A stretch of 64,000 nt of DNA from an uncultured Thermodesulfatator sp. Lineage in GTDB: Bacteria > Desulfobacterota > Dissulfuribacteria > Dissulfuribacterales > QOAL01. Position numbers and translations under genes: made by a program. This document shows, piece after piece, positions 14,268 to 51,478 of this stretch; the first letter of the stretch is position 1, and the number at the start of each line of letters is the position of its first letter. A model generated the notes under the pieces. The model did not search any database, was not told where the DNA came from, and saw only the letters and a list, made by a program, of their open reading frames with translations. The stretch spans positions 17,643 through 81,642 of the forward strand of contig CAYZJS010000087.1 in the NCBI GenBank assembly GCA_964478865.1. Reading direction: 5' to 3'.

Positions 14268-15644
14268 ATGAAGCATCTCTTCCTATTGGCCGTTGTCGCT
14301 ATCTTCGGATGTTCTGGCGCCCTTGTCCATGCAGCCGAAAAGATAGACGCCACCCAAAACGACACCATTGACAGCGATCACGGCTTTGAGACGGTACAGC
14401 ACAAAGAACCCGGGGGTTTGAGGCTGCCAAAGGGATGGAAGTTTTCCGGAGACATGCGGACAGGCTGGGTCAGTTACGACTATGGCAACTCTCCCAGCCA
14501 TCCGGACCCCACCGTCAACAAGGGCCACCTGGATTCCCACGGTTACTATTTCATCCCCAAGATATCCCTGCAGACCCCTGAATTTCACGGGCTCTATGCA
14601 AAGGTTACAGGTGCGGGGGTTACTGATTTCGGTATAAACAAGAAAAAATGGGAGGCCAGAAACTTCGCCTACGGCGACAACATGGACCCCTATGCCATCT
14701 TGCAGGAGGCGTATCTTTCATATACCTACAAGGGCAACCAGGTGGTGGCAGGGGCCAAGGAGATATCCACCCCCATGGTGGATGCAGATGACTGGTATCT
14801 CCTGGCCAACTCTTTCCAGGCCGCCTATTACGTAAACAGGATGTTCAAAAATGTGCTCTTCGCCTTCGGTTATTTTTACAAGATGGCAGGCCCGTGGGAC
14901 AGTGCCTCGGACGGGGCAAATTTCCGTTCCATGTCCGATGCAAGCTATGTATCGGACGAAGACAAGAAAAATGCCGATGACAGCGGCATCTTTACCGGCG
15001 CCTTCCAGTACAGCGATGAACATCATAACCTGCAGGTCTGGGAATACTATGCCACGGACCTCTACAATACCTTTTTCGTGCAATACGATTTCACCAGCAG
15101 GTTCAGCAAGCTCAAATATGATGCCGGTGCCCAGTTCATAAATTTCAAGGAGGTGGGAGACCTTTCCCATAATGATTTTTCGGAAATAGATTACAGCATC
15201 GTATCTTTCAGGCTGGACGGATCGTTTGACTGCGGCCTGGACTTTGCCACCGGCATGAGTTTCTATACAGATGGTCCGGGTACTGGCGAAACCCTGGGGG
15301 CATGGGGAGGCTATCCCTATTTTGCAAATGGAATGATATTCCACTTCTTCGAGGCAGGTTCCCTGAGACATACCAACAGCTACAAGGTCCAGGTAGGCTA
15401 TGACTTTTCTGACATGGGCATGAAAGGCCTCTGGTTCGGCACCAGGTTCACCTATTTTGACCTTGACTCAGACTATTCGGAAACTGCATCCGGGGATCCC
15501 CAGGACTACATGTCCATGATAGGGCTCAGGATCTCCTACAAGCATGACTGCGGCCTTTATTTTACCGGGACATATGAAACCGTGGACCTTGACCATGAAC
15601 CAAATGTCTCGGCCCTGAGGCTGATAGGGGGAATAACCTTCTAG
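14268..15644 (+). CDS. outer-membrane porin (OprD-like beta-barrel, family uncertain)
   Basis: Signal peptide MKHLFLLAVVAIFGCSGALVHA. It has alternating aromatic/Gly-rich strands and a terminal ...LRLIGGITF. The RBS AGGAGGAG lies 8 nt upstream. The start is 14 nt after the glsA stop. Confidence 0.65.
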   Translation: MKHLFLLAVVAIFGCSGALVHAAEKIDATQNDTIDSDHGFETVQHKEPGGLRLPKGWKFSGDMRTGWVSYDYGNSPSHPDPTVNKGHLDSHGYYFIPKISLQTPEFHGLYAKVTGAGVTDFGINKKKWEARNFAYGDNMDPYAILQEAYLSYTYKGNQVVAGAKEISTPMVDADDWYLLANSFQAAYYVNRMFKNVLFAFGYFYKMAGPWDSASDGANFRSMSDASYVSDEDKKNADDSGIFTGAFQYSDEHHNLQVWEYYATDLYNTFFVQYDFTSRFSKLKYDAGAQFINFKEVGDLSHNDFSEIDYSIVSFRLDGSFDCGLDFATGMSFYTDGPGTGETLGAWGGYPYFANGMIFHFFEAGSLRHTNSYKVQVGYDFSDMGMKGLWFGTRFTYFDLDSDYSETASGDPQDYMSMIGLRISYKHDCGLYFTGTYETVDLDHEPNVSALRLIGGITF

Positions 15645-15695
15645 GTACTGGACGCACCCGCCAGGCGAAGCCTTCGGCACCATGTCCAAAAAAAA

Positions 15696-15720
15696 CCCCG
15701 GCCCATTTTGCAGGCCGGGG
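15696..15720. terminator. bidirectional intrinsic terminator
   Basis: CCCCGGCC-cattttgca-GGCCGGGG. It is preceded by an A8 run (a U-tract for the minus strand) and sits between convergent genes. Confidence 0.65.
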
Positions 15721-15772
15721 AGGGTTTGGGACTTGATGGGTTTTTTTCTGTAAGAAATTACCTCAATATGGC

Positions 15773-16249
15773 CTAGAGACCCGCCCGGTTCTTGGCCATA
15801 TTGCCCTGGCCTGCGCCGTTTCCTTTCATGCCCCTCCACAGGGGAGCCCCGGTGGTCGCATCGCGCAGTGTAATGGTCTCGCCGCCCACGGTTATGGCTG
15901 CAGCAATGATCCTGGTGGTGCCATCTGAAAGTGTGACCTCGTATCCGCTCACTGTCACTTCCTCTCCCACCTCTGGGCGTGCAACGCCTGCAGCATCCCA
16001 GTATTTCTGGGGTCCGATACCGAATACGGTGACGATTTCAGAACCTGTATCAACTGACATGCCGGCCCCTTGTATTCCGATTTCACTAACAACTCCGGAA
16101 ACCTCAACTGGTACTCCGTCTGTGATATTCATCAAGGGGCCGCTACCATCCATGGCACCCTGTCCGTTTCCGGCAAAGACCGTTGGTGCTGCAACAAGGA
16201 CAAGCATGGCTGCAAGGTAAAACATCATCATAGATTTTGCGTATTTCAT
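15773..16249 (-). CDS. secreted protein with two beta-rich repeats and Gly-rich ends
   Basis: Signal peptide MKYAKSMMMFYLAAMLVLVAAPTVFA. The mature N-terminus is GNGQGAMDGSG. Repeats are VPVEVSGVVSEIG... and EEVTVSGYEVTLSDG..., followed by TITLRDATTGAPLW and the tail GMKGNGAGQGNMAKN. The RBS AGGAGG is upstream. Confidence 0.6.
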   Translation of the reverse strand: MKYAKSMMMFYLAAMLVLVAAPTVFAGNGQGAMDGSGPLMNITDGVPVEVSGVVSEIGIQGAGMSVDTGSEIVTVFGIGPQKYWDAAGVARPEVGEEVTVSGYEVTLSDGTTRIIAAAITVGGETITLRDATTGAPLWRGMKGNGAGQGNMAKNRAGL

Positions 16250-16303
16250 TAATCAATTCCTCCTGATACTCGTTTTTTTACCGGCCGGTTGACTATAACC
16301 ATT

Positions 16304-16318
16304 ACAAGTAGCATGCCA
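16304..16318 (-). promoter_or_regulatory. sigma54 -24/-12 promoter
   Basis: The minus strand reads TGGCAT-gctac-TTGT (GG-N10-GT). It lies 54 nt upstream of ATG 16249. Confidence 0.55.
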
Positions 16319-16391
16319 CCTTCTATCAAGAAGAAAAATTCAATAATAACAGCAAGTAATATGAATGGGGTAATCGGTTAAATCCGGGGAT

Positions 16392-16431
16392 GTTCGACAA
16401 ATGCCTGTGCGGGCTCGACATTGTTGTCGAA
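16392..16431 (-). promoter_or_regulatory. enhancer (UAS): 16-bp palindrome plus half-site
   Basis: TCGACATTGTTGTCGA (16415..16430) and TCGACA (16394..16399) are 15 nt apart. The same parts with the same spacing occur at 25710..25748. Confidence 0.6.
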
Positions 16432-16511
16432 AACGGTGCCTTAGGCGGGCCGTTTTGAAAGATGTCAGGAAAAAGTTCCAACCTTTCTTCAGATAGCAGC
16501 CACAAATGAAA

Positions 16512-16639
16512 TTGGCCTGTTACAGATTCTTTGGCGAGGCAAGGCGGCAGGGGAGGCTTTTCGGAGACAGGAAAGCAGGCCCATAGAAGCTGTAAGGGCG
16601 GATTCCTGTTTCCAAGGCCCTTTCAGGCCCCCTCTTGCC
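16512..16639. repeat. copy C of a long-palindrome intergenic repeat family (truncated/composite)
   Basis: 16542..16583 is a 42/42 reverse-complement match to 63653..63694. The reverse complement of 16582..16639 matches 63067..63124 at about 53/58 positions. Confidence 0.8.
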
Positions 16640-16651
16640 CGTCGATCTTTA

Positions 16652-17230
16652 CTATACGATGGGTACCCCGTTTCCAAGGGCAATGTGCCCCGGGATAGGG
16701 ATCTTCCGGCTTTCCTTTTTCAGGAGTATCGCCTCTCCATACTTGAATGTACCGGAACCCTTGCATCTTCCAGCCAGGATCTCGATTATCTTTGCGTCCC
16801 TTATCTTGAGGATAAACCCCTCAAGGTCGAATTGGAGTATCAGGTCGAAAACCATTCTTCCTATGGGGTTGTCGTTTACGTAGATCTCAAGATAAGGGTG
16901 ATGGACAGATTTGATTCTGTGATGGCCCAGTGGGCACAGGATTGTTTCCTCTGGCGGATATTTTTCCCTGTCACTGTACTTTTTGATCTCCTGGTGTTTC
17001 TTCCAGGCATTCACCAGGATGTCCTCCAGCTTGATGTCAAGAAGACGGCCAGCGGCCTCCGACGCCTCGGAAAAGATATCCGTCCACTTTATGTCCTTCA
17101 CCCTTTCAAGAAAGGTGTCTTTCAAAAGCAAGACGCTATCAAGTGCCTCAAGGCCCGCAAACTTCCTGCCAAGGGAACCGATTTCGTCTCCAAAAAGGAC
17201 CGTTAGAGAGATATGACTGGTGTTTTCCAT
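16652..17230 (-). CDS. hypothetical cytoplasmic protein (192 aa)
   Basis: Intact ORF 55 nt downstream of the PKD gene on the same strand. I recognise no motif and it has no signal peptide. Confidence 0.55.
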   Translation of the reverse strand: MENTSHISLTVLFGDEIGSLGRKFAGLEALDSVLLLKDTFLERVKDIKWTDIFSEASEAAGRLLDIKLEDILVNAWKKHQEIKKYSDREKYPPEETILCPLGHHRIKSVHHPYLEIYVNDNPIGRMVFDLILQFDLEGFILKIRDAKIIEILAGRCKGSGTFKYGEAILLKKESRKIPIPGHIALGNGVPIV

Positions 17231-22101: not shown

Positions 22102-23436
22102 TCACCCCTGTCTTTCGTTTTTAATGCCGTATTTTTTCATCTTGTATCTCAAAACCCTCTCGCTTATGCCAAGGAGCTCGGCAGCCCTGGTCTGCACCCA
22201 GTCCCTGGCCTTTAATGCCTTGAGGATTTCCTCTTTTTCCACCTGCCTGAGCTTTGCCTCGAGGTTCATGTTGGCCTGGTCTTCCGCAAAGGGATCAAAG
22301 GGAATGTCCGAGGCCTTTATTACATTTCCTCGGCAGAGGGTGACCAGCCGTTGAATCATGTGCTCCAGTTCCCTCACGTTTCCGGGCCAGCTGTTTTTCA
22401 CCAGCCTGTCCATAGCCTCATGGGCAATACGAACCGGCCTTGACTGGTACTTTTCCAGGAAGAGATGAACCAGGTCCGGGATATCATCTTTCCGCTCGCG
22501 AAGCGGCGGCAGGTGGATCTCAAAGACATTCAGCCGGAAATATAGGTCCTGCCTGAACTCCCCGTTTTCCGCCATCTTCTTCAGGTTCCTGTTGGTGGCT
22601 GCAATAATCCGAACGTCCACCTCAACGGGCCTTAGCGCACCGACAGGCGTCATCTTCTTTTCCTGCAGGACCCTCAGAAGCTTGGCCTGGAGATGTTCCG
22701 GCAGCTCTCCTATCTCGTCCAGGAACAGGGTGCCTCCCTGGGCAAATTCGAAAAGCCCCCTTTTATCCCTGGAGGCCCCTGTAAAGGCCCCCTTCTTATG
22801 GCCAAAGAGTTCACTTTCAAAAAGGTTCTCGGGAATGGCGGCACAGTTGACTTCAACAAATTCCGCGTCTTTCCTGGGGCTGAGCTCGTGAACGAGCCGG
22901 GCCATGAGTTCCTTGCCGGTTCCGGTCTCCCCGTAAATCAATACTGGCCACGGAGTGGCTGCAACACGCCTTGCAGTGGAGACTGCCTCCTTCATGGCGG
23001 CGCTTTTCCCTATGAATGTCAGGGGGATCTGGCCTTCTTCAATCTCACTGCTCACCTCCTGGAGGTCTGCCTCTGTCTCTATCCTGTTCATGGCAGCCTC
23101 CACCTTTTCAAGAAGCTGCTCCAGGTCCACTGGCTTTTCCAGGAAGTCTGAAGCCCCGAGCTTCATTACCTTGACGGCGGTATCCACTGCCCCGTATGCA
23201 GTGATCATGATGACCTGGACCAGGGGATTGATCTTCTTGAGTTCCTGAAGGACCAGGTCGCCATTCATGTCAGGCATCCTGTGATCGAGCAGAACCAGAG
23301 GGATGAACTCCTTTCTGAAAAGTTCCAGTGCCTGCCTGCCACCTTCTGCCTCCAGGGCACTGAAGCCCTTTTCCTCCAGGAACTGCGCTATAATACTCCT
23401 CTGGATCGGCTCATCGTCCACGATTAGAATCTTCAT
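22102..23436 (-). CDS. NtrC/ZraR-type sigma54-dependent response regulator (REC-AAA+-Fis HTH)
   Basis: REC domain KILIVDDEP...LLDHRMPDMNG. Walker A is GETGTGKE and the GAFTGA loop reads GHKKGAFTGA. The C-terminal HTH is AAELLGISERVLRYKMKKYGI. Confidence 0.9.
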   Translation of the reverse strand: MKILIVDDEPIQRSIIAQFLEEKGFSALEAEGGRQALELFRKEFIPLVLLDHRMPDMNGDLVLQELKKINPLVQVIMITAYGAVDTAVKVMKLGASDFLEKPVDLEQLLEKVEAAMNRIETEADLQEVSSEIEEGQIPLTFIGKSAAMKEAVSTARRVAATPWPVLIYGETGTGKELMARLVHELSPRKDAEFVEVNCAAIPENLFESELFGHKKGAFTGASRDKRGLFEFAQGGTLFLDEIGELPEHLQAKLLRVLQEKKMTPVGALRPVEVDVRIIAATNRNLKKMAENGEFRQDLYFRLNVFEIHLPPLRERKDDIPDLVHLFLEKYQSRPVRIAHEAMDRLVKNSWPGNVRELEHMIQRLVTLCRGNVIKASDIPFDPFAEDQANMNLEAKLRQVEKEEILKALKARDWVQTRAAELLGISERVLRYKMKKYGIKNERQG

Positions 23437-25052
23437 TTGGTCCCGTCCCGCCTCCTTCCTGCCTTTGCTGGAAAGCCTGTTTCCACCACAAAACTGCCAG
23501 ATTCAACCCTGGCCCTGATAAATCCGTTGTGAGCCGCCATTATCCGCTGGCATATTGAAAGACCAAGGCCCGTGCCCCTGGTCTTAAGGGTGAAGTACGG
23601 CTCGAAGATCTGATCAAGCTCCTCTCTGGAGGGAAGATTGCCACCATTGGCTATCCTTGCGACCTGGAAACCGTTTTCCACTGCCAGTTCAATGATTATG
23701 GCCTCACCTTCCGGCTGTGCGTCCAGGGCATTTGAGAGGAGGTTTTCAAAGAGCTGGAGCGCAAGGTCGGGATCTGCCTCAACCAGGACCTCCCTTATGA
23801 TCCTGAAGTCGATTCCTATACCCTGGAATTTTTCCCTGCCCTCGATATTCGCAAGGGCCTCCCTCAGGATATGCGAGATAAAAACCGGCCGGATTTCGGG
23901 CTTGAGTGGCCGTGCGTAGGAAAGCAATCCTGAAATTATCCTTTCCGTCCTTGCAAGTTCGCCTTGTATGAGCCCCAGAAGCTTCCTGTGCATTTCGGGC
24001 AAGCCCTTCTTGTCCATGAGCAATCTCTGTATACCCATGGACACGCTGTTTAGGGGATTTCTTATCTCGTGGGCAATGGTTGCAGCCGAGCGGCCAAGGC
24101 TTGCCTCGTGCCTTTCCCGGAAAAGCTGTTCCTCGTATTCCCTCATCTTCGAGACATAAGCGGCCTGGTGCCTGTAAAGCAGCCAGGTGACTATTCCTCC
24201 AGTGGCCACCAATATCAGGCTGAAAAAGAAGAGGAGCATCCAGATATTACGTTGTTTCGCCCTGAGGGAGCCTGCATCCATTCCCAGGATCAGGACTTGT
24301 TCTCCCAGGTCAAACTGCACCCGGACTACAGGTCCGGAGTCGCTATCGTAGTAGGCGACATCCTGTTTTTTATCGCATTTTTCCGGGCATCCCCAGCCAT
24401 TTGCCTCTACGCAAGCCGATTCCCTGTCTGTCAGCCTTACGAATTTTACCCCGGCAAGATGGGATATCTCCCGAAGGGTATTTTCAAGGCCTATCCTCTC
24501 CTGGATGGCCATGACCTGGGAGGCATCGATTCCGGCAATAACGCATACCTGATCCCCGGGGCCGAAGGGACTTACGAAAATAAACATCCTCTTTTCCCGG
24601 TCCTCCCTCAAGGCTGGCCCGGCATTGCAAAGAGATACGGCAGGCCGGGGCAGCCAGCCGAATTTGCTCTCCACCAGGTTTCCGGAGCCTTTCTCCATTA
24701 TGCTTATTCCGCTCAGTCCGGCCTCCTGGGCAAATGCAGAAAGCTCCTCCCTGGTAAAGGGCTCTACGTGCTGCAGGTACCTGATGAATCTTATCTGGCT
24801 TTTTAAGAAGGAAGAGATGATCTGCCTGCTGGTCTTTCGGGCCTGGATGGCATTTTGTGCATTAAGCCTGATTATTTCTGCTGCAAGCCTGGCATGGTCC
24901 CTGGCCTCGTCCAGGAAGATGCGGTCTAGATACCTTGTCTGCCATACCGCAACGGTCACTGCCACGGCAAATATCACGAGAAAGGCTACAAAATTGGCCT
25001 TCCACAGACTCGGAAAGCCAGACTTGGGAGAACCGCCACGCTCCTCGCTCAT
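23433..25052 (-). CDS. sensor histidine kinase with about 230-aa periplasmic domain
   Basis: Two TM helices (FVAFLVIFAVAVTVAV and IWMLLFFFSLILVATGGIVTWLL). The H-box is AATIAHEIRNPLNSV and the G-box is TRGTGLGLSICQRIM. The stop overlaps the regulator start as ATGA. Confidence 0.85.
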   Translation of the reverse strand: MSEERGGSPKSGFPSLWKANFVAFLVIFAVAVTVAVWQTRYLDRIFLDEARDHARLAAEIIRLNAQNAIQARKTSRQIISSFLKSQIRFIRYLQHVEPFTREELSAFAQEAGLSGISIMEKGSGNLVESKFGWLPRPAVSLCNAGPALREDREKRMFIFVSPFGPGDQVCVIAGIDASQVMAIQERIGLENTLREISHLAGVKFVRLTDRESACVEANGWGCPEKCDKKQDVAYYDSDSGPVVRVQFDLGEQVLILGMDAGSLRAKQRNIWMLLFFFSLILVATGGIVTWLLYRHQAAYVSKMREYEEQLFRERHEASLGRSAATIAHEIRNPLNSVSMGIQRLLMDKKGLPEMHRKLLGLIQGELARTERIISGLLSYARPLKPEIRPVFISHILREALANIEGREKFQGIGIDFRIIREVLVEADPDLALQLFENLLSNALDAQPEGEAIIIELAVENGFQVARIANGGNLPSREELDQIFEPYFTLKTRGTGLGLSICQRIMAAHNGFIRARVESGSFVVETGFPAKAGRRRDGTK

Positions 25053-25060
25053 CTCAGCCG

Positions 25061-25471
25061 CTACCTTCCATGTCCCCGTCCATGGCCGTGTCTTCCTGCT
25101 CTCCCCCGGAAGCCGGCGGCCTTCCTAAGCCGTTTCTTTATGCCGGTCATGTCGTGGCCGTGACCCGGACACACACGCTCCAACTCAAGAGAACCGGCCT
25201 TGCCGTGTTTTATCCACATTCTGATATTGGAACCCTTTTGCACCCCCGCCGCCTCAAAACCGGAATCATAGGCGACTGTCATGTCCTTGCCGCTTTCCAT
25301 GTCGCGGATGACCATGGTCTTGTCTGCAGGATCTATACGGACTACCTGGCCGGCAAGAAGTTCAGATGCGTATGCGCCTGAAAAGAGGGCCAGCCAGATG
25401 AGCAAGGCTCCAGCAAGGAAAGCGCCCGCGTGCCACGGGTGTTTTCCAGTTGCAAAGCCCGGAAGGCGCAT
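25061..25471 (-). CDS. small secreted protein with His/Gly/Arg-rich C-terminal tail
   Basis: MRLPGFATGKHPWHAGAFLAGALLIWLALFSGAYA looks like a signal peptide. The tail is PGHGHD...GRAGRHGHGRGHGR. It is the first gene of the kinase/regulator operon. The start is uncertain (25513 is also possible) and neither candidate has a strong RBS. Confidence 0.5.
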   Translation of the reverse strand: MRLPGFATGKHPWHAGAFLAGALLIWLALFSGAYASELLAGQVVRIDPADKTMVIRDMESGKDMTVAYDSGFEAAGVQKGSNIRMWIKHGKAGSLELERVCPGHGHDMTGIKKRLRKAAGFRGRAGRHGHGRGHGR

Positions 25472-25621
25472 CTGAAATCTAATCTCATTCCTGTAAAGAG
25501 ATGTTTTACACATTGCTTTTAATATAGGTAACGTCCTTCCCGGTTCATTTTTAAACCTATGGATGCAGACTGGACAGGGTCAGCCGTGGCAGACACCTTG
25601 AGTTGTCCTGAATTTCCATCC

Positions 25622-25636
25622 GCAAAAACGATACCA
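25622..25636 (-). promoter_or_regulatory. sigma54 -24/-12 promoter
   Basis: The minus strand reads TGGTAT-cgttt-TTGC (GG-N10-GC). Confidence 0.5.
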
Positions 25637-25708: not shown

Positions 25709-25748
25709 TTCGACAATATTGTCGAGAAGCGGAAATCATTTGTCGAAC
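25709..25748. promoter_or_regulatory. enhancer (UAS): 16-bp perfect palindrome plus half-site
   Basis: TCGACAATATTGTCGA (25710..25725) and TGTCGA (25741..25746) lie within TTTGTCGAAC. They sit between divergent sigma54 promoters. Confidence 0.6.
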
Positions 25749-25821
25749 TGCCTGAAGATGTCCGCCGTTGCTTCCGACGTTAACTTGATGATTTTAAATA
25801 AAATTTTCCAAGAAAAAAACG

Positions 25822-25836
25822 TGGCACGATCCTTGA
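25822..25836 (+). promoter_or_regulatory. sigma54 -24/-12 promoter
   Basis: TGGCAC-gatcc-TTGA lies 46 nt before ATG 25883. The RBS AGGAGG is at 25868..25873. Confidence 0.55.
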
Positions 25837-25882
25837 GTAGTTAAAGTCCTGAAATACAAAAAACCCCAGGAGGTGATACAAA

Positions 25883-26215
25883 ATGAAATCGATAACACTT
25901 AGAACCGTGCTGGCAGCCGGGGCGCTATTTATAGCCATTCCAGCCCTTGCCGCAGATTACAGCAGTTATTCTCTCCAGGAGCTTTCCCAAATGAGAGGCA
26001 CAATGATGGACAAATCCCAGGAAGAAAGAGAGGCCTTCAGAAACGCCTGGATGGAAAAGATGAGAAATGCCACGCCGGAAGAAAGATCCCTTTATTCCGG
26101 AGCACAGGGAAAGGGCCACAAGTATGGCCAGATGCACTCAAATGGCCAGTCAGGCTTCGGCGGCGCGGGAAACTGTGACGGGTCGGGACACGGCCACAGA
26201 CACGGCCGGAAATAA
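25883..26215 (+). CDS. small periplasmic helical protein with Gly/His-rich tail (ZraP/Spy-like in composition)
   Basis: Signal peptide MKSITLRTVLAAGALFIAIPALA. The core is helical and charged (QEEREAFRNAWMEKMRNATPEER). The tail is GFGGAGNCDGSGHGHRHGRK. Confidence 0.6.
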   Translation: MKSITLRTVLAAGALFIAIPALAADYSSYSLQELSQMRGTMMDKSQEEREAFRNAWMEKMRNATPEERSLYSGAQGKGHKYGQMHSNGQSGFGGAGNCDGSGHGHRHGRK

Positions 26216-26268: not shown

Positions 26269-27066
26269 ATGAAAACCATCAAGACCATTCTTACAGTAGC
26301 CTGCATAATTGCCGTGACAGCAGGTGTTGCCATGGCCCAGGGCAAGGGCCGTGGCAGTAACGGCGCAGGTCAGTTCATGGCCGGACCAGGAACTATTGTA
26401 TCCCAGCTTCCATACGAGGAGTTGAGCCAGCAGGAAAAGGACGGCCTCCTCAAGATGAGGGAAGAGGAAAAGCTCGCCAGGGATGTATACATGTACCTGT
26501 ACGATTTGTGGCAGAACCCGGTGTTCTCAAACATTTCCAAGTCTGAACAGCGCCACATGGATGCAGTGGGCGCTATCCTGAACAAATACGGCCTGGAAGA
26601 CCCGGTGGACGGTATGGGGCCTGGTCAGTTCAATTCACCCGAGATGCAGGAGCTCTATAGCAGCCTGACTGCAAAAGGCACCTCTAGCATACAGGATGCG
26701 TTTCTTGTGGGAGCAACCATAGAGGATCTCGACATCAAGGACCTGGAAGAGCTTATGGAAACAGCGGACAACGAAGACGTGCTTACCGTCTATCAGAACC
26801 TTGTAAAAGGATCAAGAAACCATCTCAGGGCTTTCGGTTCCCGGCTTGCCAGTCTGGGCATTACCTACAAAGCCCAGTTTCTTACCCAGGAGGAAGTTGA
26901 CGCCATAATCAGCAGCCCTTGGGAAAGAGGCCGGGTTGACAAGGATGGAAATCCCGTCTCCGGCATGGGCAAGGGCCGCAATAAGGGGCACAGGTACGGT
27001 TCCGGAGCCGGTCCCAACTTCGTGGATGCTGATGGAGACGGAATCTGCGACAACTGGAACAAATAA
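26269..27066 (+). CDS. secreted DUF2202 (ferritin-like) protein with Gly-rich ends and a C-terminal D-x-D-G-D-G-x-C-D motif
   Basis: It has a signal peptide. MREEEKLARDVYMYLYDLWQNPVFSNISKSEQRHMDAV matches my memory of DUF2202. The C-terminus is GKGRNKGHRYGSGAGPNFVDADGDGICDNWNK. Confidence 0.7.
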   Translation: MKTIKTILTVACIIAVTAGVAMAQGKGRGSNGAGQFMAGPGTIVSQLPYEELSQQEKDGLLKMREEEKLARDVYMYLYDLWQNPVFSNISKSEQRHMDAVGAILNKYGLEDPVDGMGPGQFNSPEMQELYSSLTAKGTSSIQDAFLVGATIEDLDIKDLEELMETADNEDVLTVYQNLVKGSRNHLRAFGSRLASLGITYKAQFLTQEEVDAIISSPWERGRVDKDGNPVSGMGKGRNKGHRYGSGAGPNFVDADGDGICDNWNK

Positions 27067-27103: not shown

Positions 27104-27142
27104 CAGTTTAATAACAACTGAAAATTGAAAAAGGAGGATTCC

Positions 27143-27700
27143 ATGAACAAAGACTGTGCAATATTCGTAATGGCACTGGCCATAATCGTCATGCTGGGAT
27201 ATCTTGCACGTTCCGAATGGATTCCGCCGGTTGAAAACAGCCCCCGGGAAACGGTACATTCCATGCCAAGGCATAGCACGGCCAAAAGGGTAACTCACCA
27301 CACACCCAGGGTGAAGAGGCATCAGACATCACGACAAACATATCAAGTCCATCACGTTAGGCCCGCAACCCGCCCAGATATCAGACACGCGGTTTACAAT
27401 ACCTATCAGCCCCGCCGCTCCTATGCCCAGGATCTGGCCGAGTGCAAAATGCTGGCGCAGCGGGCGGCTGGATATGTCCCGGAAGAAACCATTAAAGGTG
27501 GCCTCCTAGGTGGTGCCATCGGTGCAGCAGCAGGAGCAGCCATCGGTGCCGTTTTGGGGCATCCTGGCAAGGGGGCGGCAATTGGAGCAGCAGCAGGAGG
27601 CATAGGCGGAGGTGCCTACAGGGGCCTTTCCTCTGACCAGAAGTACAGGCGAGCCTATTCAGCCTGCATGAGAAACCGGGGATGGAACGTACTGAACTAA
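27143..27700 (+). CDS. glycine-zipper membrane/outer-membrane protein
   Basis: ATG 27143 follows AAGGAGG. A basic His/Arg/Pro-rich linker precedes GGLLGGAIGAAAGAAIGAVLGHPGKGAAIGAAAGGIGGGA, which is a glycine zipper. Confidence 0.65.
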   Translation: MNKDCAIFVMALAIIVMLGYLARSEWIPPVENSPRETVHSMPRHSTAKRVTHHTPRVKRHQTSRQTYQVHHVRPATRPDIRHAVYNTYQPRRSYAQDLAECKMLAQRAAGYVPEETIKGGLLGGAIGAAAGAAIGAVLGHPGKGAAIGAAAGGIGGGAYRGLSSDQKYRRAYSACMRNRGWNVLN

Positions 27701-30468
27701 ACAGTCATGCTGTAATCCGACAGAGGGGCCTTGAGGCAATTTCTAACGGCCCTTAGCAGCTTGTCCGGGCTGAATGGTTTTTTTATCAACAGGACTGGCT
27801 TGAGGCCCTGGCGAATTTCCGAGAGGTCTGCCCTGGAACTGTAGCCGCTGCTGAAAAGTATTCTGGCAGCCGGGTCTGTCTCCAGTATCTTTTTTGAGGC
27901 CTCTATTCCATCCATCTCGGGCATTACCACATCCATCAGGACCAGGCTTACTTCGGGAAACAGGGACTTATATATTGAAACCGCCTCCCTTCCGTTCTTG
28001 GCCATTATGGTCCTGTATCCATGTTGACGCAGAATTTCACTAGCGAGATCCCTTATAAGTTCCTCGTCATCAACTATCAAAATGGTCCCGGTTCCTGACA
28101 AGTTATCATCAGATTTAATATCTCTCATCGAGCCCTTACCCGGTTCGCCAATCGGGAAATAGAGCTCAAAAGAACTCCCGCTGCCAGGAATGGTCTTGAC
28201 GTCAATGGTTCCGCCCAGGCTCTCCAGGATACCGTAAACCATGGCAAGGCCAAGGCCAGAACCCTTGCCCACCTCCTTGGTGGTGAAAAACGGGTCGAAA
28301 ATCCTGTCTATGATTTCCAGGGAAATTCCTGTTCCCGTATCGTTAACCTCCAGTTTAACAAATTTTTCTTCCCTGGAACGATTCCTCAAAGATGCGGGTA
28401 GCGTTTCTTTGGGGCACAGGGAAGTAGAAATCCGGATCTTTCCGCCATGAGGCATGGCATCCCTGGCATTAATACACAGATTGAGGATGATTTGCTGAAG
28501 CTGGGACGGATCACATTTGATTTCCGAAACATTCCCGGCCAGATCGAATTCCAGCCCGATGTTCTTTGGGAACGAACTCTTCAAAAGGGTCAAGGATTCC
28601 TCGATAACATCGTTGATATTGCAAACCGCGTCTTCCTGAGGAGTGGTTTCCCTGCTGAAAACCAGCATCTTCTTAACCAATGCTGCAGCGCGAAGGCTGG
28701 AGTTTTCAATAATCTCTACAAAACGCGCCAGGTCTGGCCTGTCTGCCACCTTTTCCTTTAAAAGAGAGGTAAACCCAAGAATGCCTGTAAGTATGTTGTT
28801 GAAATCGTGAGCAATGCCTCCTGCCATGGTGCCTATGGATTCCATCTTTTGGGCCTGTAGGAGTTTGCGCTCCAATTCCTTCTGGCTTGAAAGATCAGTG
28901 ACCACGGCCAGGCAACCCAGCATGCTGCCATTATTGGGATCCTGTATGGGGACACTGCTCATTAGAACGGGGATGTCCTTGTCATCGGTGGCATGAAAAA
29001 GGATTTCCTCCTTTGCCTGAAGGCCGGAATAGTTGGCCATGAGGAGGGAAAGAAGCCTCCTTTTTTCATCCCTGTCAGGTACGAAATCGTAGATCCTCGA
29101 ACCTGTCAGGTCGTCTTTGCCAACGAGCCTGTTCATCTTCATGTTGGAGAAGATAACAGTCCCTTCCTCGTTCATTATCATGATGCCTTCATTTATGTTT
29201 TCAACAATCTGCCTGTGCTTCTTTTCAGAGGTTTCGATTTTTTTGTACAGGTTGGCATTTTCTATTGCCATGGCAATGTGATTGGCAAAACTGGTGAGAA
29301 AATCCCTGTCGATCTCCTTTATGAAGTTCTTGTCAGATGCATTGTCTCCCACCATGATTCCCACCACCTGCCCTCTTACGGCCATGGGTACAATAACAAA
29401 GGCCTTTGGCTGAAATGCCACCAGCAGGGGATTTTTCCTGTTGAGGGACAGTGAACCCGCATCTTCCACCAGGATGGGTTTCTGTGCCTGGGCAGCCCTT
29501 GCTATGATATTGTTTTTCTTGTCAATGGAGATGCGATAGCACTTGAGCCTCTTAAGCGTATCCTCGTCTACACCGGCTGCATGAATAAGGCTTAGCTTTC
29601 GGCTTTCCTGATCCACCAGGAAGACACCGGCCCTTTCGAGCCTTGCAATATCCATCATCCGCTTGAGCACCCTGTCGAGCAACTCGGTAAGATCAAGGGT
29701 GGACAGTATGGCCGTGCTTGTTTCATGCAGTGCTGAAAGCTGTTCAATCTTGCCCTGCAGATCCTTGTTCAGGGCATAGATCTTTTCATATTTTTCCTGG
29801 AGGAGTTTCTTGTCCTTTTCCAGCTCACGGACAGATTCCCTGGCTATCTTCCAGGGTGCAACGATCTGAAAGACCTTGCTCCTGAATCTGGACTGGGGTT
29901 TCCATGAGATATGGTACTCGCAATAGGGTGCGCCCTTGAAAAAACACTTGGGCTCTTCAATACTGCAGGCGCCCCCACCCCATATTGAAGGCATGGCGGA
30001 ATAGATCCCCTTGTTGAAAAGGCAGAAGTCACGGTTCAGTTCGATGTCCTCGTTCCAGTGCAGCCTGACCACGGCATCCTTCTTCTCAAGGCTTACCAGG
30101 GAGATAGTTTTGGTCCTGTTGAACTTGTCATTGATTCTTTGGGCATAGCCCAAAATATTCTTGGGACTCCCCAAGGCATAAACCAGTATCTTCTGGACAT
30201 AGCCGAACCTCTTTTTCATTACGGAATGGTATCCTATGTTGTAGGCAATATTTTCATCCCCTAGGATCTTTTTTGCGTTTCGATAAAGTATCATCATAAC
30301 AGTGGATGATACCCAGTTATTGGGATCCGAGAGAAATGACTCCTTGTCGTCGATACCATACAATTCTTTATCCAGGCCGCTAAACAGCATACCCGTCTTG
30401 TCAGGCGCCAGTTCCTTGACATACTGGATAATCGCAAGACTATTTAAACAGCTGTTATGCTTTTCCAT
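27697..30468 (-). CDS. hybrid sensor kinase: N-terminal ligand-binding domain (V4R-like?), coiled coil, GAF, PAS, HisKA, HATPase, REC
   Basis: The H-box is [14 protein letters not shown] and the G-box is [13 protein letters not shown]. The REC domain is [12 protein letters not shown]...[11 protein letters not shown]. The N-terminal domain ends in [22 protein letters not shown]. Confidence 0.85.
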
Positions 30469-50348: not shown

Positions 50349-51281
50349 TCATGATCCCGCCTTGACCACAAGGGTGTTTCCACCTTCCTTCTTCGCGGTG
50401 TACAGGGCGTCATCCGCGTCTGCCACGAGCTTTCTGGTAAGGGCCTCCAGGTCGTCGCCCTCACCCAGCCTGGCGAGCCCCAGGCTCAGGGTTGCCGAAT
50501 TGACATCTTCCTTCAAGAAATTGGTCCTGATGCGTTCTGCAATGGCTTCTGCATGTTCCTGGGAAGCATAGGGTATGAGTACGGCGAATTCGTCTCCACC
50601 AAACCTGAAGGCCAGATCCACGTTTTTCCTGGTGGATCTTTCAAGTGTCCTGGCCAAAATATTCAAAATCCTGTCACCTTCCTGGTGTCCGGCCTCATCA
50701 TTAACCGCCTTGAATTTGTCCAGGTCCACCATGAGCAGGAAGAGGGGATATTTTTGCCTCAGTGCCCTGGCGGCCTCCTCCATGATCTTCTGGTCGAAGA
50801 ATCTCCGGTTGTAGAGGTCGGTGAGTCCATCCCGGACGGAAAGCCTCTTGAGTGCATGCCTGAGCTGCCGTTCACGGATCACCCTGTTTAACTTTGCCTC
50901 TATCTCGTCAAGGGAAAATGGCTTCTGGATAAAATCGCTGGCGCCTGAACTAATGACATCGGTATATGTAAAATTCTTGGTATATCCCGTCATTACCAGC
51001 ACATCGATGTCTGGCCAGGACTGCTTGACAATCTTGAGAAGTTCCAGGCCGTCTATCTGCGGCATGATGAGATCGGTTATGATTATGGTAAAATTCTGGT
51101 CTTCCAGAAGTTCCAGCGCATTCCTGCCATTTTCAGCAGTGGAATAGCTGAAGCCCTTTCTTTCCAGGAACTGGCCCAGGAGGCTTCTTATGGAGACATC
51201 GTCATCCACGACCAGTATTTTCTGGTTTTCTTCTTCCATTTTGATAAAAGGGAGCCCGTTAATGTAATCTTCCAGATCCAT
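50349..51281 (-). CDS. response regulator-diguanylate cyclase (REC-GGDEF)
   Basis: The REC domain is KILVVDDDVSIR...IITDLIMPQIDG. The cyclase domain is VDLDKFKAVNDEAGHQEGD...RFGGDEFAVL. Confidence 0.85.
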   Translation of the reverse strand: MDLEDYINGLPFIKMEEENQKILVVDDDVSIRSLLGQFLERKGFSYSTAENGRNALELLEDQNFTIIITDLIMPQIDGLELLKIVKQSWPDIDVLVMTGYTKNFTYTDVISSGASDFIQKPFSLDEIEAKLNRVIRERQLRHALKRLSVRDGLTDLYNRRFFDQKIMEEAARALRQKYPLFLLMVDLDKFKAVNDEAGHQEGDRILNILARTLERSTRKNVDLAFRFGGDEFAVLIPYASQEHAEAIAERIRTNFLKEDVNSATLSLGLARLGEGDDLEALTRKLVADADDALYTAKKEGGNTLVVKAGS

Positions 51282-51478
51282 AGAAGTAATTTTTATTCCC
51301 TAAGCGTATAAGTATTCCCTAACCATATAAAATAATAGCATGTCGCAGGTTAACAATCAAAATGCCAGAGTTTGCTTTTTCCAAAAAAATAGCAGGCGGC
51401 TCCCGTGTGACCTTTGAAAAGCGTGCCATATTGATTTTGTCGGCAACACCTGACATTCACTTTATCAAGATTTACTGT

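What the first reader, a model, noticed from the sequence alone, without database searches (positions are those of the whole stretch)
16304..16431. Second copy of the same enhancer-promoter cassette with base-for-base identical spacing, 9 kb away
Read on the minus strand, the locus contains TTCGACAacaaTGTCGAG (palindrome 16430..16415), then 15 nt, then TGTCGA inside TTTGTCGAAC (16401..16392). After a further 75 nt of AT-rich sequence comes TGGCAT-N5-TTGT (16318..16304), and 54 nt later ATG 16249. At the 25.7-kb locus the corresponding gaps are also exactly 15 nt and 75 nt, so the palindrome-to-TGGCA gap is 96 nt in both. The flanking bases of the sites are shared (TTCGACA, TGTCGAG, TTTGTCGAAC), while the intervening sequences are unrelated. 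That pattern argues for selection on binding sites and helical phasing rather than a recent duplication. It links the orphan secreted-protein gene 15773..16249 to the regulator at 22102..23436.
Basis: seen in the sequence. Interest (0 to 1): 0.7.

Follow-up and report, generated by a model that had tools for sequence, protein, structure and literature searches.

The report
Second sigma-54 promoter of one regulon
The site is a real, ordinary-in-kind sigma-54 promoter with its activator-binding site. It places a small secreted protein gene under a nearby two-component regulator, and the same conserved layout is found across many sulfate-reducer relatives.

Summary
On the minus strand: TCGACAacaaTGTCGA (16430..16415), 15 nt, TGTCGA (16399..16394), 75 nt, TGGCAT-N5-TTGT (16318..16304), ATG at 16249. 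The 25.7-kb copy has the same 15/75 spacing.

These are the only two exact palindromes in the window. The same palindrome lies upstream of the sensor-regulator operon in 50 of 57 related genomes. That compares 70 copies seen with about 2.6 expected by chance.

Every ortholog lineage of the 158-aa gene examined carries the cassette, with spacing 15 and 75-77 nt. Some sit next to the regulator and some are orphans.

A pattern-only metagenome scan gave at least 118 more cassettes. Palindrome-to-promoter distances fall only at about 70-75, 82-84 and 90-97 nt, which is helical quantisation.

So the spacers are not wholly unrelated.

Best reading: a canonical three-part promoter (activator site, IHF bend, sigma-54 promoter) of an uncharacterised envelope or metal-stress regulon laid out like ZraPSR. 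It is a new member of a known kind. Nothing was tested experimentally and the signal is unknown.

The parts
16415..16430 (-). Upstream activator site: perfect inverted repeat TCGACAacaaTGTCGA
   Evidence: One of only two exact copies in the window. The same motif lies upstream of regulator operons in 50/57 related loci.
16394..16399 (-). Extra half-site TGTCGA, 15 nt after the palindrome. It lies 21 nt from the right-hand half of the palindrome, so on the same helical face.
   Evidence: A half-site at 13-15 nt is present in most cassettes of the 71-75 and 91-98 classes.
16347..16359 (-). Weak IHF-like site TTACTTGCTGTTA (6/9 to YAANNNNTTGATW). It starts 41 nt upstream of TGG and is followed by an A/T-rich run.
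   Evidence: The position is fixed at 41-42 nt in the 82-98 nt classes. Orthologs L084 and L085 have TTACATGyTGTTT at the same place.
16303..16318 (-). Sigma-54-type promoter TGGCATGCTACTTGTA (GG at -24; TTG at -12, with T in place of the consensus C)
   Evidence: A score of 17.0 is reached in about 1% of random 130-nt windows.
16280..16289 (-). GC-rich palindrome ACCGGCCGGT in the predicted 5' leader. Function unknown.
   Evidence: A palindrome occupies the same position in 9/10 orthologs, with different sequence in each. RNAalifold predicts no structure.
15773..16249 (-). 158-aa secreted OB-fold protein (MamS/MamX-like family). RBS AGGAGG at 16264..16259.
15696..15720 (-). Intrinsic terminator (10-bp stem followed by T8). 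It closes a single-gene transcription unit.
25710..25725 (+). First copy of the palindrome, TCGACAatatTGTCGA. It lies between the divergent operons.
25741..25746 (+). Half-site TGTCGA, 15 nt after the palindrome
25781..25793 (+). IHF-like site TAACTTGATGATT (8/9), 41 nt upstream of TGG
25822..25837 (+). Sigma-54-type promoter TGGCACGATCCTTGAG
25621..25636 (-). Divergent sigma-54-like promoter TGGTATCGTTTTTGCG, 73 nt from the palindrome. It reads toward the 150-aa gene, the sensor kinase and the regulator.
   Evidence: Similar sites occur in L001-L006.
25883..26215 (+). 110-aa secreted helical protein with a His/Gly-rich tail
26269..27066 (+). DUF2202 (ferritin-like) secreted protein
27125..27700 (+). 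Glycine-zipper protein, probably the last gene of the operon
25061..25513 (-). 150-aa protein with a His/Gly/Arg-rich tail. First gene of the sensor operon.
23433..25052 (-). Sensor histidine kinase
22102..23436 (-). NtrC-type response regulator and enhancer-binding protein (receiver, AAA+ with GAFTGA, HTH_8)

Best explanation
The 16.3-kb locus is a complete enhancer-dependent promoter that belongs to the regulon of the two-component system at 22.1-25.5 kb.

Proposed mechanism, all steps inferred:

1. The sensor kinase (23433..25052) phosphorylates the NtrC-type regulator (22102..23436).
2. Regulator dimers bind the TCGACA-N4-TGTCGA palindrome and the extra TGTCGA half-site two helical turns away. 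They then assemble into the active AAA+ ring.
3. An IHF-type bend at the YAAC...TTGATW-like site, 41 nt upstream of -24, brings the ring to sigma-54 RNA polymerase waiting at TGGCAT-N5-TTGT.
4. ATP hydrolysis opens the promoter.
5. A single-gene mRNA is made for a secreted OB-fold (MamS/MamX-like) protein, ending at the terminator at 15720..15696.

The same geometry drives the 110-aa/DUF2202/glycine-zipper operon at 25.8 kb. The same palindrome probably also drives the divergent sensor-regulator operon, giving autoregulation.

The identical 15/75 spacing reflects a requirement for correct helical phase between activator site, bend and promoter.

Shown here: the sequence elements, their conservation, their association with the regulator, and the quantised spacing.

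Inferred: protein binding, IHF involvement, sigma-54 dependence and the physiological signal. The signal is probably an envelope or metal stress.
For: - **Elements and coordinates** were verified.
- **The regulator has the defining domains**: receiver, AAA+ with GAFTGA, Walker A and B motifs, and HTH_8.
- **The palindrome tracks the regulator operon.** It is found 1.5-5.2 kb upstream of the regulator in 50/57 genome loci, with 70 copies against 2.6 expected.
- **Homologs of the 158-aa gene sit directly behind the cassette** beside the regulator in L015, L067, L207 and L029. Orphan copies with their own cassette occur in L084, L205, L209 and L211. Spacing is 15 and 75-77 nt in all of them.
- **The metagenome scan by DNA pattern alone gave at least 118 loci.** Distances from the palindrome to TGG fall at 69-75, 82-84 and 90-97 nt, with none at 76-81 or 85-89 after a -12 filter. 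The Rayleigh R of 0.65 at a period of about 11 exceeded all 5000 null draws.
- **A regulator of the same family** is present in 12 of 34 pattern-found contigs of at least 9 kb.
- **The IHF-like site has a fixed offset**: 41-42 nt or 31 nt from TGG. It matches at 8/9 or better in 26/61 cassettes, against 6% of shuffled spacers. It is also visible in the metagenome logos.
- **The same target families occur with different distance classes** and no intermediates.
- **An experimentally studied analogue exists** in a related organism: the D. vulgaris orp operons, with sigma-54, IHF and palindromic EBP sites (PMC3897727).
Against: - There is no experimental evidence for binding, transcription start, sigma-54 dependence or co-regulation.
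- The -12 element reads TTGT or TTGA, not the consensus TTGC.
- The IHF-like match at 16.3 kb is weak (6/9).
- rpoN and ihf genes are not in the window, so their presence in this genome is assumed.
- The close relatives L001, L002, L072 and L003 have no copy of the 158-aa gene within 10 kb of the regulator. The local arrangement is therefore lineage-specific.
- The distance classes are partly inherited, so the statistics overstate independence.
- A sigma-70-like match (GTGGCA-16-TATAGT, 9/12) overlaps the site, although it is at chance level.
Confidence: 0.8

Rival explanations
1. The two cassettes are copies from a recent duplication, and the identical spacing is simply inherited rather than selected.
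For: The spacing is identical at 15/75. The flanks TTTCGACAA, TGTCGAG and CATTTGTCGAAC are shared. In-register spacer identity is 30/75 (P about 0.008), the highest off-diagonal value in the cassette matrix at 0.59.
Against: Outside the functional elements, identity is at noise level. Orthologs of the 158-aa gene that are 52-76% identical already carry their own cassette in unrelated contexts. Orthologous cassettes of close relatives are just as diverged (0.45-0.59) yet keep their length. An ancient duplication followed by selection against indels remains possible and is compatible with the main explanation.
Confidence: 0.04
2. The palindrome is bound by some factor other than the adjacent response regulator, such as a repressor or a different enhancer-binding protein. 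Its co-occurrence with the regulator operon would then be incidental.
For: No binding data exist. Of the pattern-found contigs of at least 9 kb, 22 of 34 show no regulator within the stored flank. Seven of 57 regulator loci lack a palindrome with at most one mismatch.
Against: The motif is tied to this regulator family in 50/57 loci and in 12/34 pattern-only contigs. It always sits at a helically phased distance from a sigma-54-type promoter, as expected for an enhancer-binding protein. Two of the seven exceptions have two-mismatch palindromes at the expected place.
Confidence: 0.07
3. The gene is transcribed from an ordinary sigma-70 promoter, and the sigma-54-like match is fortuitous.
For: A 9/12 sigma-70-like match (GTGGCA-16-TATAGT) overlaps 16319..16292. 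The -12 element lacks the consensus C.
Against: Sigma-70-like matches in the region are at the shuffle expectation: 2 found against 1.5 expected. The TGGCAY-N5-TTG element is kept at a fixed distance in all orthologs while the surrounding sequence turns over.
Confidence: 0.04
4. The resemblance is a chance coincidence of short motifs.
For: None beyond the shortness of the hexamers.
Against: There are two exact 12-base-specified palindromes in 64 kb, and both carry the same 12-mer half-site context and a sigma-54 site at the same distance. The motif is massively enriched in related loci and metagenomes.
Confidence: 0.01

Closest known systems
Escherichia coli ZraPSR (zinc-associated envelope stress system; sigma-54-dependent two-component system)
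   Same: The regulator is an NtrC-type response regulator paired with a sensor kinase. A shared activator site lies between divergent promoters for a small periplasmic protein and for the sensor-regulator operon, implying autoregulation. The targets are small secreted proteins with Gly/His-rich tails. One cassette-driven gene elsewhere (L095) is an LTXXQ/Metal_resist protein of the ZraP/CpxP/Spy family. The ZraPSR layout itself is taken from established knowledge, not tested here.
   Different: The regulator and kinase fall far below the ZraR and ZraS equivalog cut-offs (361 vs 760 bits; 139 vs 479 bits), and only the cytoplasmic part of the kinase matches. The 110-aa protein has no LTXXQ hit. 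This regulon includes an unlinked second promoter, and its targets belong to the MamS/MamX-like, DUF2202 and DUF4405 families.
Desulfovibrio vulgaris OrpR (DVU2106)/IHF/sigma-54 control of the divergent orp operons
   Same: It belongs to the same broad group of sulfate reducers. It has palindromic EBP sites, sigma-54 promoters, functional IHF sites centred between them, and two promoters synchronised by one activator (PMC3897727).
   Different: OrpR is a one-component sensor, not a phospho-activated response regulator. Its operator sequence and targets differ. The two orp promoters are adjacent, not 9 kb apart.
NtrC-glnAp2 and NifA-nifH paradigm (upstream activator sequences, IHF bend, face-of-the-helix dependence)
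   Same: It shares the three-part architecture and the need for correct helical phase between activator site and promoter. The quantised 74/83/95-nt classes found here are the natural-variation counterpart. The paradigm is taken from established knowledge.
   Different: The regulator specificity and the physiological role differ. Here the evidence is comparative only.
NorR-norVW (three enhancer sites needed to build the active oligomer)
   Same: More than one activator site is needed or used. Here that means a full palindrome plus an extra half-site two turns away (PMC2831303, listed; abstract only).
   Different: NorR uses three full inverted repeats and is a one-component NO sensor. Whether the half-site is required here is untested.

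Membership tests
Sigma-54-dependent promoter | GG at -24 and GC at -12, spaced exactly (TGGCAC-N5-TTGC) | tested here: inconclusive
   The GG and the spacing are present. The -12 element is TTGT (16.3 kb) or TTGA (25.8 kb), so the G is kept and the C is not. Many family members show the same TTGA/TTGT variant.
Sigma-54-dependent promoter | Activator binding site about 70-150 bp upstream | tested here: met
   The palindrome ends 96 nt upstream of TGG at both loci.
Sigma-54-dependent promoter | A cognate enhancer-binding protein with the GAFTGA loop is encoded in the genome | tested here: met
   The regulator at 22102..23436 has Sigma54_activat (E 5e-74), GAFTGA at residue 216, and HTH_8.
Sigma-54-dependent promoter | rpoN is present, and transcription is lost without it | not testable with these tools
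   No RpoN-box ORF is in the 64-kb window. The rest of the genome is not available.
NtrC-type response-regulator enhancer-binding protein | Receiver, AAA+ sigma-54 interaction domain and Fis-type HTH | tested here: met
   Response_reg, Sigma54_activat, AAA_lid_14 and HTH_8 are all above the Pfam cut-offs.
ZraSR/ZraP system | Regulator and kinase reach the ZraR and ZraS equivalog scores, and the target is an LTXXQ protein | tested here: not met
   ZraR 360.7 vs 760 bits; ZraS 138.5 vs 479 bits. The 110-aa protein has no Pfam hit.
IHF binding site | Match to WATCARNNNNTTR with a flanking A/T tract, placed between activator site and promoter | tested here: inconclusive
   The match is 8/9 at 25781..25793 and 6/9 at 16359..16347, in the same register. 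The position is conserved across the family. Binding was not tested.
MamS/MamX domain family (PF26390) | Significant match to the Pfam model | tested here: inconclusive
   Homologs and the near-identical P0001 carry a precomputed 'weak' PF26390 hit. The local Pfam scan gave no hit. The predicted fold is a generic OB-fold.

The most novel reading that the evidence does not exclude
The cassette marks an uncharacterised envelope or metal (possibly iron) stress regulon that is widespread in Desulfobacterota. Its members come from families otherwise linked to magnetosomes and ferrosomes: MamS/MamX-like OB-fold proteins, DUF2202 ferritin-like proteins and DUF4405 membrane proteins. Its hundreds of natural promoter variants would form a ready-made data set. 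The data show that enhancer-IHF-promoter geometry changes only in whole helical turns.
Probability: 0.2. Interest if true: 0.55.

Novelty: new member of a known kind. Interest (0 to 1): 0.35.

Why it matters
- It assigns an orphan secreted-protein gene to a specific sensor-regulator pair.
- It defines the operator (TCGACA-N4-TGTCGA plus a half-site) of an unstudied regulator family that is common in sulfate-reducing and syntrophic Desulfobacterota.
- It gives a search pattern that finds further regulon members in any genome.
- The quantised spacing is a clean comparative illustration of helical phasing at enhancer-dependent promoters.
- The principle itself is textbook, so the value lies in annotation and regulon discovery rather than in new mechanism.

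Tried and rejected
- **Rfam scan of 15500..16700:** nothing near threshold.
- **PDB sequence searches** with the 158-, 110- and 150-aa proteins: no significant relatives.
- **Pfam and NCBIfam** on the same proteins: no hits.
- **Fold search** with the 158-aa model: only a generic OB-fold.
- **Literature searches** for the motif, DUF2202 and DUF4405 with sigma-54 found no description of this regulon. The D. vulgaris sigma-54 regulome paper does not mention the motif.
- **A second degenerate palindrome** at the half-site: by eye, the position where a left half would lie matches TCGACA at only 1 of 6 bases at 16.3 kb and no better at 25.7 kb, so I treat the half-site as a lone half-site. This was not scored with a tool.
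- **Cassette genealogy** to separate duplication from convergence: the spacers are saturated, so it was uninformative.
- **RNAalifold on the 5' leader palindrome:** no predicted structure.
- **Other TGGCAY-N5-TTG matches at 54.6-54.8 kb:** these are intragenic and on the strand opposite the ORF, so I treat them as chance.

Full report
**1. Observation**

At 16.3 kb the order is:

- TCGACAACAATGTCGA at 16430..16415
- 15 nt
- TGTCGA at 16399..16394
- 75 nt
- TGGCATGCTACTTGT at 16318..16304
- 54 nt
- ATG at 16249

At 25.7 kb the order is TCGACAATATTGTCGA at 25710..25725, 15 nt, TGTCGA at 25741..25746, 75 nt, TGGCACGATCCTTGA from 25822, and ATG at 25883.

These are the only two exact TCGACA-N4-TGTCGA matches in the window. 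They are also the only two exact CATTTGTCGAAC sites. Both sigma-54-type sites score at a level reached in about 1% of random 130-nt windows.

**2. Anatomy of the 16.3-kb unit**

The cassette is followed by a leader with a GC-rich palindrome (16289..16280) and an AGGAGG ribosome-binding site. Next comes a 158-aa ORF with a signal peptide, then a strong intrinsic terminator at 15720..15696. It is therefore a self-contained single-gene unit.

The protein has no direct Pfam or NCBIfam hit. Its homologs carry a weak precomputed PF26390 (MamS_MamX) label. A model built from 27 homologs (pLDDT above 90 over residues 46-127) is an OB-fold.

**3. The 25.7-kb locus and the regulator**

The regulator at 22102..23436 has a receiver domain, a sigma-54 AAA+ domain with GAFTGA, and HTH_8. 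Upstream on the same strand lie a histidine kinase (23433..25052) and a 150-aa protein with a His/Gly/Arg-rich tail.

The cassette at 25.7 kb drives three genes:

- a 110-aa secreted helical protein with a His/Gly-rich tail
- a DUF2202 protein
- a glycine-zipper protein

On the other side of the palindrome, 73 nt away, is TGGTATCGTTTTTGCG (25636..25621). It points at the sensor operon, and similar sites occur in close relatives. The layout is therefore ZraPSR-like: one activator site between divergent promoters, with probable autoregulation.

**4. Related genomes**

A search with the regulator returned 80 loci from Desulfobacterota, at 47-86% identity.

- The palindrome (at most one mismatch) occurs 70 times in 1.17 Mb, against 2.6 expected.
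- It lies 1.5-5.2 kb upstream of the regulator in 50 of 57 loci with enough sequence.
- Two of the seven exceptions have two-mismatch versions at the expected place.

tblastn shows that homologs of the 158-aa gene sit directly behind this cassette next to the regulator in L015 and L067, where a 110-aa homolog follows. In L029 the homolog lies just after the regulator.

The closest relatives (L001, L002, L072, L003) share the window's gene order around the regulator but have no 158-aa gene within 10 kb.

**5. Orthologs of the 158-aa gene**

I read contigs for five further homologs. All carry the cassette:

- P0001 (96% identical) has the same cassette as the window.
- P0002 and P0004 (76% and 71%) are orphans beside an ABC transporter and a molybdopterin oxidoreductase. 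Their spacing is 15/77 and 15/76.
- P0003 (65%) lies next to an IS66 fragment, with spacing 15/77.
- P0005 (61%) is divergent from a sensor-regulator operon, with spacing 15/76.
- P0009 (57%) lies upstream of a DUF4405 gene, with spacing 15/76.

The sites are present in every ortholog lineage examined. The first gap is always 15 nt, and the second is 75-77 nt.

**6. Metagenome scan and spacing**

I scanned for palindrome-N13-15-TGTCGA-N48-78-TGGCA. My own rough estimate of chance matches is about three.

In 101 unique cassettes, the distance from the palindrome end to TGG was:

| Distance (nt) | Cassettes |
|---|---|
| 69-75 | 65 |
| 82-84 | 5 |
| 90-97 | 31 |
| 76-81 | 0 |
| 85-89 | 0 |

Class means are 73.4, 82.0 and 94.7. 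The Rayleigh statistic peaks at a period of about 11 and exceeded all 5000 uniform nulls. The genome loci give the same classes, plus single cases at 106, 110 and 117.

The same target families appear in different classes without intermediates. DUF2202 occurs at 71, 74 and 94-97, and 110-aa homologs at 73-75, 91 and 94. This argues that the classes are not only inherited.

Twelve of 34 pattern-found contigs of at least 9 kb encode a regulator of the same family. This supports the site-regulator link independently. It also shows that orphan cassettes like the one at 16.3 kb are common.

**7. The missed element**

Right-aligned cassettes show a YAAC-N3-yTGATW motif followed by an A/T run. This is the reverse complement of the IHF consensus WATCARNNNNTTR.

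- It starts 41-42 nt upstream of TGG in the 82-98 nt classes.
- It starts 31 nt upstream in the 71-75 nt class.
- 26 of 61 cassettes match at 8/9 or better, against 6% of shuffled spacers.
- It is visible in logos from the independent metagenome set.

The window's copies are TAACTTGATGATT (8/9, 25781..25793) and TTACTTGCTGTTA (6/9, 16359..16347). This explains the above-chance in-register spacer identity of 30/75, P about 0.008.

The three geometry classes can be written as activator-to-bend plus bend-to-promoter distances: about 43+31, 43+41 and 55+41 nt. Each step is about one helical turn.

**8. Duplication or selection**

Gapped identity between spacers of orthologous cassettes is 0.45-0.59, even for genomes whose regulators are 86% identical. 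That is no better than between the two window copies at 0.59.

Sequence has turned over completely while length stayed at 15 and 75-77 nt. That is the signature of selection against indels.

A recent duplication is excluded. An ancient duplication is plausible, for example from an ancestral cassette driving the 158-aa and 110-aa genes in that order, as in L015 and L067. It cannot be proven.

**9. What the regulon may do**

Cassette-driven first genes elsewhere include:

- Gly-rich small secreted proteins
- OB-fold homologs of the 158-aa protein
- DUF2202 proteins
- DUF4405 membrane proteins
- glycine-zipper lipoproteins
- one LTXXQ/Metal_resist protein

His/Gly-rich tails and CDGSG-type motifs recur among them. 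A preprint lists DUF2202 and DUF4405 among proteins conserved in ferrosome gene clusters (10.1101/2020.01.10.902569).

This points to an envelope or metal-homeostasis response. That is inference only, and the signal is unknown.

**10. Comparison and verdict**

The architecture matches the classical enhancer-dependent promoter. Two comparators are closest:

- The D. vulgaris orp system, for its palindromic EBP sites, functional IHF sites centred between them, and sigma-54 promoters (PMC3897727).
- E. coli ZraPSR, for its layout.

The regulator and kinase fail the ZraR and ZraS equivalog cut-offs, so this works like ZraPSR but is not a member of that system.

No paper in the searched library describes this operator or regulon. 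It is a new member of a known kind. It is solid and useful for annotation, and mechanistically unsurprising.

Noticed in passing
window 16280..16289 (-); L207, L067, L211, L029, L163 leaders: A GC-rich palindrome sits about 29 nt after the T of TGG in the leader of 9 of 10 orthologs of the 158-aa gene, but its sequence differs between them: ACCGGCCGGT, TCCGGTACCGGA, AAGCTGGCCAGCTT, TTCGGCCGAA. That suggests a structure rather than a protein site. RNAalifold predicts nothing, and the 25.8-kb leader lacks it.
   Followed up: partly
window 25621..25636 (-): A divergent sigma-54-like promoter, TGGTATCGTTTTTGCG, lies 73 nt from the shared palindrome and points at the 150-aa/kinase/regulator operon. 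This implies autoregulation. Similar TGGTAY-N5-TTGC sites occur in L001-L006.
   Followed up: partly
A glycine-zipper gene at 27125..27700 follows.
   Followed up: yes
window 25061..25513 (-), 25883..26215 (+); A2 alignment; L088, L104, L034: His/Gly/Arg-rich tails (RHGHGRGHGR; NCDGSGHGHRHGRK) and CDGSG/DGSC motifs recur in several cassette-driven proteins. The DUF2202 protein ends in DADGDGICD. These may be metal-binding, but this was not tested.
   Followed up: no
window 51352..51367 (-): A sigma-54-like site, TGGCATTTTGATTGTT, lies about 70 nt upstream of a receiver-GGDEF gene (50349..51281). It has no TCGACA palindrome and may belong to another regulon.
   Followed up: no
L209 6189..7081: An ortholog of the 158-aa gene with its cassette is followed by an IS66-family transposase fragment. 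This hints at how cassette-plus-gene units move to orphan positions.
   Followed up: no
L087-L204 and L001-L080 promoters: In the 71-75 and 91-98 nt classes the -12 element is mostly TTGA or TTGT rather than TTGC. The 82-87 nt class, found mainly in loci labelled Desulfobulbus or Desulfobulbaceae and often upstream of DUF4405 genes, uses CTGCT or TTGCT.
   Followed up: partly
window 27697..30468 (-): A 923-aa GAF-PAS hybrid histidine kinase with a receiver domain lies convergent to the glycine-zipper gene. It is kept in synteny in L001, L002 and L072. Its relation to the regulon is unknown.
   Followed up: no
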